64,000 bases of DNA from Escherichia phage vB_EcoP_SP5M: sequence record NC_070869.1. One strand, given 5' to 3'. Shown piece after piece: positions 35,928 through 36,000 of this stretch. The notes beneath the pieces are model-generated. The model saw only the letters and a list, made by a program, of their open reading frames with translations. It did no database searches and was not told where the DNA came from. Position 1 is the first letter of the stretch. The number at the start of each line of letters is the position of its first letter. The position numbers and the translations under genes were made by a program.

Positions 35928-36000
35928 TACCCGGTAGGCTTAGTGGTAAAGCCCCACTAGTAAACCAACTAGGACGCAGGTTCGAATCCTGCCCGGGTAA
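35928..36000 (+). tRNA. tRNA-like gene or pseudo-tRNA (canonical acceptor, D and T arms; aberrant anticodon arm)
   Basis: 73 nt; acceptor TACCCGG/CCGGGTA; D-arm GGCT-TAGTGGTAA-AGCC; T-arm GCAGG-TTCGAAT-CCTGC; anticodon region folds only as CTAGT-AAACCA-ACTAG. Confidence 0.4.

What the first reader, a model, noticed from the sequence alone, without database searches (positions are those of the whole stretch)
35928..36000. tRNA-like gene with intact acceptor, D and T arms but a non-canonical anticodon arm
Everything except positions 27-43 fits a 73-nt tRNA. The anticodon region cannot form a 5-bp stem with a 7-nt loop; it pairs perfectly only as CTAGT-AAACCA-ACTAG (6-nt loop), or 4 bp with an 8-nt loop. 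This could be a decayed tRNA, a decoy substrate, or a functional tRNA with an altered loop (expanded loops are known in frameshift suppressors).
Basis: seen in the sequence. Interest (0 to 1): 0.45.

Follow-up and report, generated by a model that had tools for sequence, protein, structure and literature searches.

The report
Phage tRNA look-alike that cannot decode
An N4-like E. coli phage carries a 73-base RNA gene that keeps the folded shape of a tRNA under selection, but its anticodon arm is displaced and mis-sized, so it is most likely a non-decoding tRNA mimic of unknown use and not a broken or frameshift-reading tRNA.

Summary
ARAGORN calls 35928-36000 (+) a tRNA with a 2-base "anticodon", and Rfam tRNA scores it 42.5 bits only by skipping the anticodon arm. 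The deviation is wider than reported: a 5-bp D stem, a 3-nt linker (normally 1), the hairpin CUAGU-AAACCA-ACUAG, and a 3-nt variable region.

The window is an N4-like Gamaleyavirus. The element is a clean presence/absence module, found in 18 of about 93 related genomes and 4 metagenome contigs, so it is not a sequencing error.

It is not decaying. 10 of 73 sites vary, against 7/12 and 7/9 in the adjacent spacers, and every change fits the fold. These include an acceptor G-C to A-U swap and a G15:C48 to A15:U48 tertiary-pair swap.

Diverged homologues in other enterobacterial phages (SABI-like, Klebsiella 05F01, NDO71) keep the same shifted geometry. Their anticodon stems covary fully, with 8-9-nt loops, no U33 and no shared triplet. 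The discriminator base and CCA vary.

Best reading: a non-decoding tRNA mimic, matured from a 1.5-kb array of tRNAs and tRNA-like RNAs between the gp47 and gp48 homologues, and acting through its tRNA body. Whether it is a decoy or a processing unit is inferred, not shown. Interest is moderate: a new variant of a known kind.

The parts
35928..36000 (+). tRNA-like gene (73 nt), the finding
   Evidence: ARAGORN tRNA-???. Rfam tRNA 42.5 bits. Cloverleaf minimum-energy fold. Family covariance model R1 gives 101 bits.
35928..35934 (+). Acceptor stem 5' strand UACCCGG, pairing with 35993-35999 CCGGGUA. Discriminator A at 36000, followed by UCA, not CCA.
   Evidence: Fold. Helix 100% paired across 11 sequences, with 4 of 7 pairs changed on both sides, including G6-C67 to A6-U67 inside the genus. 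Eight of 11 aligned genus copies (7 of the 10 relatives) have ACCA.
35937..35953 (+). D arm: 5-bp stem GGCUU/AAGCC and loop AGUGGUA (A14, G15, G18, G19)
   Evidence: G15 covaries with the last variable-region base, C48: G:C in the window type and 05F01, A:U in CU10EC, SABI and L007.
35954..35956 (+). 3-nt linker CCA between the D and anticodon stems (canonical tRNA has 1 nt)
   Evidence: The same 3-nt linker (GCC, ACC) is seen in SABI, 05F01 and NDO71.
35957..35972 (+). Displaced anticodon-arm hairpin CUAGU-AAACCA-ACUAG (5 bp, 6-nt loop)
   Evidence: Homologues have CCCAG/CUGGG, CCCAA/UUGGG and CGCAG/UUGCG, and PW8 has U-A changed to U.G. Four of 5 pairs covary with no mismatch.
35973..35975 (+). 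3-nt variable region GAC (C = position 48)
35976..35992 (+). T arm GCAGG-UUCGAAU-CCUGC
   Evidence: The closing pair is G-C, G.U or A-U across the family.
36001..36009 (+). 9-nt A/U-rich spacer to the next gene (variable)
   Evidence: 7 of 9 columns vary among relatives.
36010..36086 (+). Neighbouring canonical tRNA-Ile with anticodon AAU, same strand
   Evidence: ARAGORN. Rfam 62.4 bits.
35739..35920 (+). Upstream, nearly invariant, closed structured module. Its 3' end abuts the tRNA-like gene here, and abuts tRNA-Ile directly in genomes that lack the tRNA-like gene.
36319..36350 (+). Strong intrinsic-terminator-like hairpin (13 bp plus a T run) that closes the non-coding array

Best explanation
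The element is a non-decoding, tRNA-shaped small RNA kept by selection for its fold. It is one unit of a ~1.5-kb polycistronic array (about 34.8-36.35 kb) of tRNAs, tRNA-like RNAs and other closed structured modules, located between the homologues of N4 gp47 and gp48. Inferred steps follow. The array is transcribed on the + strand and ends at the terminator at 36319-36350. The unit folds into an L shape with an intact acceptor/T minihelix and an intact D-loop/T-loop/Levitt-pair core. It is cut out like a tRNA: RNase P at its 5' end, cleavage in the A/U-rich spacer and trimming at its 3' end, and CCA repair where CCA is not encoded. It cannot act as an adaptor, because the anticodon hairpin is about 2 nt out of register and its loop is 6 nt without U33 or a purine at position 37. 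It therefore acts through its tRNA body. My favoured use is a trans-acting competitor or decoy for a host protein that recognises tRNA shape, for example a tRNA-targeting defence or processing enzyme. This fits an accessory module that moves on its own between unrelated phages. That last step is a guess, with about 0.25-0.3 probability on its own. Shown here: the fold, the selection on it, the non-canonical arm, the distribution and the array context. Inferred: transcription, processing, lack of decoding and the target.
For: (1) It is real and tRNA-like.
(2) It is not an error. The arm is identical in 18 phage genomes and 4 metagenome contigs.
(3) Selection: 10 of 73 sites vary, against 7/12 upstream and 7/9 in the spacer. 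Seven distinct genus variants differ only by loop changes, G-C to G.U, U-A to U.G, one double compensatory acceptor change (G6-C67 to A6-U67) and a tertiary-pair swap (G15:C48 to A15:U48). In the formal count, 7 pairs changed on both sides against 2.1 expected, and 0 of 500 shuffles reached that value.
(4) The odd geometry is shared by lineages at 75-77% identity (SABI/SonariX, Klebsiella 05F01, NDO71): a 5-bp D stem, a 3-nt linker, a 5-bp covarying anticodon stem, a 6/8/9-nt loop and a 2-3-nt variable region.
(5) Decoding is unlikely. There is no U33, and the loops are AAACCA, RACUUAAGA and CAGGCAUG with no common triplet. The discriminator is A, C or G, and the CCA is mutated in the window, ST4 and L023 copies.
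(6) It is an accessory, self-contained module. PhAPEC5 lacks exactly this unit, with a clean junction. Its neighbours differ between phages: before tRNA-Ile here, after tRNA-Gln in SABI, after tRNA-Thr in NDO71 and between Asn and Gln in 05F01.
(7) Array context: phage N4 has tRNA-Asn, Ser, Thr and Pro plus tRNA-like units at the same locus. Other units here (35459-35527, 35528-35650) also end in a closing helix followed by N-CCA-AUU.
(8) There is no counterpart in 5,426 E. coli genomes.
Against: No expression, processing or binding data exist, so all functional steps are inferred. The element is missing from about 80% of close relatives, so it is dispensable under laboratory isolation conditions. 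The window copy has lost the encoded CCA (UCA), which fits a relaxed 3' end. Divergence within the genus is small, so the conservation contrast rests on few substitutions. The adjacent 180-nt module is even more conserved, so part of the low variability could be regional. If only the tRNA body matters, the strict upkeep of the anticodon hairpin is not explained. A decoy would normally be expected to imitate its target's loop, and this one does not.
Confidence: 0.5

Rival explanations
1. It is a purely cis-acting processing and stability unit ('punctuation'). The tRNA shape only provides RNase P and 3'-end processing sites that release and protect the neighbouring RNAs (the 180-nt upstream module and tRNA-Ile). 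The released tRNA-like RNA has no role of its own.
For: RNase P needs only the acceptor/T minihelix and the elbow (established knowledge), which are exactly the parts conserved here. Every module of the array ends in a closing helix followed by N-CCA-like bases and an A/U-rich spacer. The upstream module is always followed by a tRNA-type structure: the tRNA-like gene here and tRNA-Ile in PhAPEC5.
Against: PhAPEC5-type genomes do without it, because tRNA-Ile itself supplies the site. The unit has moved alone into arrays with different neighbours in other phage groups. The anticodon hairpin, which RNase P does not use, is kept by fully compensatory changes.
Confidence: 0.2
2. It is a decaying tRNA pseudogene: a former tRNA (its top half resembles tRNA-Gln) whose anticodon arm was wrecked and which is drifting toward loss.
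For: It has the lowest Rfam tRNA score in its array: 42.5 bits here, 33 for SABI, and below threshold for 05F01 and NDO71. It is absent from about 80% of relatives. The CCA is mutated in the window copy. The locus has lost the canonical tRNAs that N4 keeps.
Against: No stem-breaking substitution is seen in 7 genus variants. Compensatory changes occur in the acceptor stem, T stem, anticodon stem and the 15:48 tertiary pair. Spacers vary 4-5 times more per site. The same non-canonical architecture persists in lineages 25% diverged and in different phage groups.
Confidence: 0.15
3. It is a working adaptor tRNA with altered reading, for example doublet or quadruplet decoding that causes -1 or +1 frameshifting, or an anticodon loop mutated to escape an anticodon nuclease.
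For: Anticodon-loop size mutants with 8- and 9-nt loops are known frameshift suppressors (from my own knowledge: sufD, sufJ and the tRNA-Arg loop mutants of Tuohy et al. 1992). Phage tRNAs are proposed to escape nucleases through loop mutations (PMC10264068). The anticodon stem is under selection. In the canonical-geometry (type B) relatives of Vequintavirinae, the central GAU is invariant while loop positions 33 and 38 vary.
Against: The window loop is 6 nt, or 8 nt with only 4 bp, with no U33 and no purine at position 37. The arm is out of register with the D stem and the variable region. The discriminator is not conserved, which argues against one aminoacylation identity. Shifted-geometry (type A) lineages share no triplet. 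ORFs in the window are contiguous, with no split genes except the intron-interrupted one. Relatives without the element have the same flanking genes.
Confidence: 0.07
4. It is not an RNA gene at all, but part of a small ORF (35882-36019, 45 aa), a DNA-level site, or an assembly artefact.
For: A 45-aa ORF overlaps it. One record (NDO71) annotates a hypothetical protein over its homologue.
Against: The substitution pattern is base-pair compensatory, not codon-wise. The T loop GGTTCGAATCC and the D-loop GG are tRNA hallmarks. Independent genomes agree on the sequence.
Confidence: 0.02

Closest known systems
Phage-encoded tRNA genes in polycistronic arrays (e.g. N4 tRNA-Asn/Ser/Thr/Pro at the same gp47-gp48 locus)
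   Same: Same locus, strand and array organisation. It has a 7-bp acceptor stem, a canonical T arm, a D loop with G18G19, the Levitt pair, and a tight 3-10-nt spacing to true tRNAs.
   Different: The anticodon hairpin is out of register (3-nt linker, 3-nt variable region). The loop is 6 nt without U33 or R37. No isotype is assignable, and CCA is not encoded in this copy.
Frameshift-suppressor tRNAs with resized anticodon loops (sufD, sufJ, tRNA-Arg 8/9-nt loop mutants; from my own knowledge)
   Same: The anticodon loop is not 7 nt. Relatives have 8- and 9-nt loops.
   Different: Those suppressors are otherwise canonical tRNAs with U33 and a defined identity, differing by one inserted base. Here the whole arm is re-registered, the loop can be shorter than 7 nt, and the discriminator varies. 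No frameshifted target genes were seen.
tRNA-like processing modules: the mitochondrial tRNA punctuation model, MALAT1 mascRNA, and the two stable RNAs in the phage T4 tRNA cluster (from my own knowledge)
   Same: A tRNA-shaped unit sits within a longer transcript next to other structured RNAs. The conserved parts are those recognised by RNase P.
   Different: Processing has not been shown here. The unit is dispensable in relatives and moves alone between phages.
YrlA / bacterial Y RNA tRNA-like domain (Rfam RF02553)
   Same: A non-decoding RNA that mimics the tRNA acceptor, T and D parts and replaces the anticodon arm.
   Different: There is no Ro-binding helix. The Rfam score is only 19.4 bits against a gathering score of 69.
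Bacterial tRNAs with 4-bp anticodon stems (PMC13092985)
   Same: One possible reading of this arm is a 4-bp stem.
   Different: Those tRNAs keep a 7-nt loop with a normal anticodon and decode. Here the 4-bp reading gives the 8-nt loop UAAACCAA, which lacks U33.
Phage tRNAs with anticodon-loop mutations proposed to evade tRNA-targeting defences (PMC10264068)
   Same: A phage tRNA-type gene whose divergence is concentrated in the anticodon loop.
   Different: Those remain 7-nt-loop decoders with assignable anticodons. This one does not.
tRNA-Gln (e.g. Bdellovibrionales tRNA-Gln UUG)
   Same: The acceptor stem (UACCCGG/CCGGGUA-A) and T arm are identical, and the D arm is similar. The homologue sits next to tRNA-Gln in SABI-like phages.
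   Different: There is no UUG anticodon and the anticodon arm differs. It lacks the E. coli GlnRS elements G2-C71, G3-C70 and G73 (from my own knowledge of the identity set).

Membership tests
Canonical decoding tRNA (Rfam RF00005) | Score at or above the Rfam gathering threshold | tested here: met
   42.5 bits against 29, but the 18-nt anticodon arm is skipped as a local end.
Canonical decoding tRNA (Rfam RF00005) | 7-bp acceptor stem, 5-bp T stem, T loop UUCRANY | tested here: met
   UACCCGG/CCGGGUA and GCAGG-UUCGAAU-CCUGC. Both helices are 100% paired in 11 sequences.
Canonical decoding tRNA (Rfam RF00005) | D loop with A14 and G18G19, and the tertiary 15:48 pair | tested here: met
   Loop AGUGGUA. 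G15:C48 covaries to A15:U48 in CU10EC, SABI and L007.
Canonical decoding tRNA (Rfam RF00005) | 5-bp anticodon stem 1 nt after the D stem, and a variable region of at least 4 nt | tested here: not met
   3-nt linker CCA and 3-nt variable region GAC.
Canonical decoding tRNA (Rfam RF00005) | 7-nt anticodon loop with U33 and purine 37 | tested here: not met
   The loop is AAACCA (6 nt), or UAAACCAA with a 4-bp stem. ARAGORN reports a 2-base anticodon.
Canonical decoding tRNA (Rfam RF00005) | Aminoacylation and ribosomal decoding | not testable with these tools
   Indirect only: the discriminator varies A/C/G, and CCA is lost in 3 lineages.
Frameshift-suppressor tRNA | An otherwise canonical tRNA with one extra anticodon-loop base and U33 | tested here: not met
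   The arm is re-registered. The loop is 6 nt here and 8-9 nt in relatives, with no U33.
Frameshift-suppressor tRNA | Target genes that require frameshifting | tested here: inconclusive
   The ORF map of the window shows contiguous genes and no split pairs besides the intron-interrupted gene. No systematic comparison of carriers and non-carriers was made.
tRNA pseudogene | Neutral substitution rate and stem-disrupting changes | tested here: not met
   Variable-site fraction is 0.14 against 0.58-0.78 in the spacers. All changes are compatible with the structure.
YrlA (RF02553), tRNA-Sec (RF01852), tmRNA | Rfam gathering score or an ARAGORN tmRNA call | tested here: not met
   YrlA scores 19.4 bits against 69. 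There is no tRNA-Sec or tmRNA hit at this locus.
Phage tRNA-like family defined here (type A: Gamaleyavirus subset, SABI-like, Klebsiella 05F01, NDO71) | Shared shifted geometry with a conserved acceptor, D 5' strand (UAGGCUUA) and T arm | tested here: met
   Covariance model R1 gives 68-101 bits for members, and at most 40 bits for all other tRNAs in 21 sources. Geometry table.

The most novel reading that the evidence does not exclude
The element could belong to an undescribed class of phage tRNA mimics: an L-shaped tRNA body carrying a re-registered, freely re-programmable hairpin in place of the anticodon arm. Such mimics would be exchanged as single modules among unrelated enterobacterial phages (N4-like, phi92-like, rV5-like, SABI-like). 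They would act in trans either as decoys or inhibitors of tRNA-recognising host defences, or as loop-loop 'kissing' regulators. The SABI/05F01 loop R-A-CUUAAG-A has the layout of a dimerisation loop. More broadly, the gp47-gp48 region of N4-like phages could be a battery of CCA-ended structured RNAs, not a simple tRNA cluster.
Probability: 0.2. Interest if true: 0.75.

Novelty: new variant of a known kind. Interest (0 to 1): 0.42.

Why it matters
Phage tRNA genes are usually explained by codon supply or by replacing tRNAs that host defences destroy. This element cannot plausibly supply decoding. Even so, its tRNA fold, including a tertiary pair, is kept by compensatory evolution, and it is passed between unrelated phages. 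If it is a stable RNA in infected cells, it points to a tRNA-shape-dependent, translation-independent function in lytic coliphages. N4-like phages are genetically tractable, and natural variants without the element already exist, so this is testable. On the practical side, annotation pipelines currently label the same gene tRNA-OTHER, tRNA-Thr, tRNA-Ser, tRNA-Ile, 'hypothetical protein' or nothing. That inflates or distorts phage tRNA counts used in codon-usage studies.

Tried and rejected
- **Sequencing or assembly indel.** Rejected: the arm is identical in 18 genomes and 4 metagenome contigs.
- **Host origin or a prophage copy.** blastn against 5,426 E. coli genomes found nothing.
- **Looking for more family members.**
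  - Two IMG/VR pattern scans found only one SABI-like contig.
  - A third scan found two more.
  - The single metagenome scan used too loose a pattern.
  - The genome scan returned only Bdellovibrionales tRNA-Gln and unrelated hits.
- **Covariance-model realignment of the anticodon stems.** The model kept a one-column offset for SABI-type sequences, so helix 3 is under-counted. I re-parsed the stems per sequence.
- **Descent of the neighbouring long tRNA-like unit (35528-35650) from N4 tRNA-Ser.** Only the T arm aligns.
- **Literature.** Five full-text searches and three papers gave no description of this element or of tRNA-like RNAs in N4-like phages.
- **Loop complementarity to host anticodons or phage targets.** Considered and dropped, because 6 nt is too short to test against chance.
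- **Homology of the Vequintavirinae 'tRNA-Ile/Ser' genes (type B) with this element.** Supported only by the shared T arm and acceptor and by the NDO71 chimera at the same locus. Model R1 scores them no higher than N4 tRNA-Asn (35-40 against 37 bits), so I treat this link as tentative.

Full report
**What the window is.** The 6 kb around the finding matches 93 phage records at 80-99% identity, mostly Escherichia phages of the genus Gamaleyavirus (Schitoviridae, N4-like). A 3,449-aa ORF on the minus strand at 38068-48417 is the virion RNA polymerase of this group. The finding lies in a ~1.5-kb stretch without convincing ORFs (about 34.8-36.35 kb). This stretch sits between the homologues of N4 gp45-gp47 and gp48.

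**Check of the observation.**
- ARAGORN finds two genes in the whole window: 'tRNA-???' at 35928-36000 with a two-base anticodon (ac), and tRNA-Ile(AAU) at 36010-36086.
- Rfam tRNA scores 42.5 bits for the first (gathering 29, E 1.2e-5) and 62.4 bits for the second. In the first alignment, the 18 nt of the anticodon arm are skipped as a local end and one G is inserted before the D stem.
- The minimum-energy fold (-28.6 kcal/mol, z = -2.95) has these parts:
  - acceptor UACCCGG/CCGGGUA;
  - U8 and A9;
  - a 5-bp D stem GGCUU/AAGCC with loop AGUGGUA;
  - a 3-nt linker CCA;
  - the hairpin CUAGU-AAACCA-ACUAG;
  - a 3-nt variable region GAC;
  - the T arm GCAGG-UUCGAAU-CCUGC;
  - discriminator A.
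The anomaly is larger than stated, though: the anticodon hairpin as a whole is about 2 nt out of register (linker 3 instead of 1, variable region 3 instead of 4-5). The gene is followed by UCA, not CCA.

**It is not an error, and it is a discrete module.**
- A blastn search with the 84-nt region finds it at 91-98% identity in 18 phage records. They annotate it as tRNA-OTHER, tRNA-Thr or nothing.
- Four metagenome contigs also carry it.
- About 80% of the related genomes lack it. In PhAPEC5 the junction is clean (...GACTCGCCCA|TTATGTCCGC...), so the upstream module runs straight into tRNA-Ile.
- PW8 and a metagenome contig carry an extra 140-210-bp structured module inserted just upstream of it.
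- Across the genus, the non-coding region is a mosaic of such modules.

**Evidence for selection on the fold.**
- Eleven Gamaleyavirus copies collapse to seven distinct sequences.
- Their differences are:
  - one anticodon-loop change, C to U (ST4, L023);
  - T-stem G-C to G.U;
  - anticodon-stem U-A to U.G (PW8);
  - a double change in the acceptor stem, G6-C67 to A6-U67 (IME11, UE-S5b, AN24P2);
  - in CU10EC and L134, D-loop G15U16 to A15C16 and U20 to C20, together with variable-region C48 to U48.
- The last set converts the tertiary Levitt pair G15:C48 into A15:U48. No change breaks a pair.
- 10 of 73 columns vary, against 7 of 12 immediately upstream and 7 of 9 in the spacer to tRNA-Ile.
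- On a model-based alignment of 11 family sequences, 93.4% of cells are paired. Seven pairs show changes on both sides, against 2.1 expected, and 0 of 500 shuffles reach that. That alignment under-counts the anticodon stem because of a one-column offset.

**Distant homologues.** Homologues at 75-77% identity occur in the following:
- Enterobacter phage vB_Ecl_SABI and the SonariX record, together with three IMG/VR contigs and one metagenome contig;
- Klebsiella phage 05F01 (Stephanstirmvirinae);
- Klebsiella phage NDO71 (Vequintavirinae, Mydovirus), in more diverged form.

ARAGORN does not call any of them. Rfam gives 33 bits for SABI and nothing at E of 0.01 or below for 05F01 and NDO71. A per-sequence parse shows the same shifted geometry in all: a 5-bp D stem, a 3-nt linker (GCC, ACC), a 5-bp hairpin and a 2-3-nt variable region.

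| Lineage | Anticodon stem | Loop |
|---|---|---|
| Window (Gamaleyavirus) | CUAGU/ACUAG | AAACCA (6 nt) |
| SABI / L007 | CCCAG/CUGGG | RACUUAAGA (9 nt) |
| 05F01 | CCCAA/UUGGG | GACUUAAGA (9 nt) |
| NDO71 | CGCAG/UUGCG | CAGGCAUG (8 nt) |

- Four of the five stem pairs change on both sides without any mismatch.
- The 15:48 pair again covaries: A:U in SABI and L007, G:C in 05F01.
- The loops have no U33 and share no triplet.
- The non-canonical design is therefore old and maintained.
- A covariance model built from these sequences scores members at 68-101 bits and every other tRNA in 21 sources at 40 bits or below.

**A possibly related second form.**
- In Vequintavirinae (Mydovirus, Seunavirus; 44 records) a gene follows tRNA-Thr at the position occupied by the NDO71 element. 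It has the same T arm and a similar acceptor stem.
- Its geometry is canonical, but its 6-8-nt loops (AAGAUUC, ACGAUUA, ACGAUUC, ACAGAUCC, ACGAUA) lack U33 and a purine at position 37, while the central GAU is invariant.
- Records call it tRNA-Ile, tRNA-Ser or nothing.
- NDO71 combines this acceptor type with the type-A D and anticodon arms, which links the two forms. Because model R1 scores them like an ordinary tRNA, I treat the link as tentative.

**Origin.**
- No E. coli genome contains anything similar.
- The only bacterial genomes with the exact T arm plus 3' acceptor strand are Bdellovibrionales MAGs, plus two unrelated hits. In the Bdellovibrionales MAGs the match is tRNA-Gln(UUG), with the same acceptor stem, discriminator A and a similar D arm.
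- In SABI-like phages the element sits 3 nt after tRNA-Gln.
- A tRNA-Gln-like ancestor is therefore plausible but not shown.

**Context.**
- Phage N4 has, at the same locus, tRNA-Asn, Ser, Thr and Pro, plus non-canonical units.
- The window retains only tRNA-Ile. It also has other tRNA-like units that neither ARAGORN nor Rfam reports:
  - 35459-35527, a three-way junction with an acceptor helix, a T arm and CCA, 69/69 identical to N4;
  - 35528-35650, with an acceptor helix, a T arm and CCA.
- Units end in a closing helix followed by N-CCA-like bases and an A/U-rich spacer.
- A 13-bp terminator hairpin follows at 36319-36350.
- This layout suggests one precursor that is cut into many small structured RNAs. 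That is an inference; I have no expression data.

**Mechanism.**
- Shown: a tRNA-type fold under purifying selection, with an arm that does not meet the requirements of an adaptor.
- Inferred: it is matured like a tRNA and acts through its tRNA body without decoding.
- Three points argue against aminoacylation-dependent roles: the discriminator varies (A, C, G), the CCA is mutated in three lineages, and no common anticodon-like triplet exists.
- I see two candidate uses of the body.
  - A trans-acting competitor or decoy for a host factor that recognises tRNA shape. This is favoured by its accessory distribution and solo transfer between phages with different neighbours.
  - A cis-acting processing unit. 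This is favoured by the array design.
- Neither is tested. I put about 0.5 on 'non-decoding mimic under selection'. Within the rest I put about 0.2 on cis-only processing, 0.15 on pseudogene and 0.07 on decoding.

**Novelty and score.** Non-canonical phage tRNA-like genes are known as a kind, and GenBank records already flag this one as tRNA-OTHER. I found no description of the family, its shifted geometry or its covariation in five literature searches. I rate it a new variant of a known kind, with interest 0.42. It is solid as an observation and cheaply testable, but no mechanism has been demonstrated.

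Noticed in passing
window 36010-36086 (+): The neighbouring tRNA-Ile has anticodon AAU (loop CUAAUAA) in every Gamaleyavirus copy seen. Its body matches the ileZ tRNA of Stx phage 933W at 58 of 77 aligned positions (about 75%), but ileZ has CAU (loop CUCAUAA). From my own knowledge, A34 is unusual for a bacterial-type tRNA outside tRNA-Arg(ACG).
   Followed up: partly
window 35459-35527 (+): A three-way tRNA-like unit: an 8-bp acceptor helix, a single long hairpin in place of the D and anticodon arms, the T arm UCUGG-UUCGAGU-CCAGA, and CCA. It is 69/69 identical in phage N4 (L142 1566), although the two phages belong to different genera. ARAGORN and Rfam miss it. Two records label it tRNA-Undet or tRNA-OTHER.
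   Followed up: partly
window 35528-35650 (+): A ~122-nt unit with the acceptor-like helix UACCAGU/ACUGGUA, discriminator A, CCA, and a T arm identical to that of N4 tRNA-Ser. The rest does not align with tRNA-Ser.
   Followed up: partly
window 35395-35458 (+): A ~60-nt motif, CCAGACGATATCTGAGTGACTTAAAAAACAGATG followed by a hairpin with a covarying stem and the fixed loop GTGGAATCC. It is about 90% identical in unrelated phages (Klebsiella Lastavirus SopranoGao, Salmonella Segz_1, temperate Klebsiella phages), is present in N4, and a similar hairpin precedes tRNA-Gln in a SABI-like contig. It has no Rfam match.
   Followed up: partly
window 35739-35920 (+): A nearly invariant ~180-nt module closed by a long-range helix (AGUCGCCAGG with CCUGGCAUGACU), directly upstream of the tRNA-like gene. 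It is likely a separate structured RNA. There is no covariation to test because it hardly varies.
   Followed up: partly
window 36087-36166 (+): An 80-nt stretch after tRNA-Ile varies at only 7 of 80 sites among relatives and is recognisable in N4 (L142 about 2130-2210). It could be another conserved non-coding unit.
   Followed up: no
window 35277-35961: ACTAGT occurs 4 times in 685 nt (0.15 expected from the window rate, P about 2e-5), each time in or next to a hairpin of a different module, including the finding's anticodon stem. CTAG occurs 9 times in 34909-36195, although it is under-represented about 3.6-fold in the window as a whole.
   Followed up: partly
window 31341-32095 (+): A group I intron (Rfam 58.3 bits) containing a 163-aa ORF (31486-31977). 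It appears to split a gene (31018-31353 plus 32123-32566) that is a single 'AAA family ATPase' gene in relative PBM-2.
   Followed up: no
L003 1501-1575, L005 1504-1578, L007 508-582: The 9-nt loop of the SABI and 05F01 homologues, R-A-CUUAAG-A, is a 6-nt palindrome flanked by purines. From my own knowledge, this is the same layout as the HIV-1 dimerisation-initiation loop, so loop-loop dimerisation is conceivable.
   Followed up: no
L009 1632-1710; L005 2410-2483; L001 2980-3059; L139 445-516: Other phage tRNA arrays hold further marginal tRNA-like units. Rfam scores two of them at 31-35 bits with no ARAGORN call. PBM-2 has an annotated 'tRNA-Cys' that ARAGORN does not find. PW8 has a tRNA-Ala(CGC) call that scores only as weak tRNA-Sec. 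Non-canonical units seem common in these arrays.
   Followed up: no
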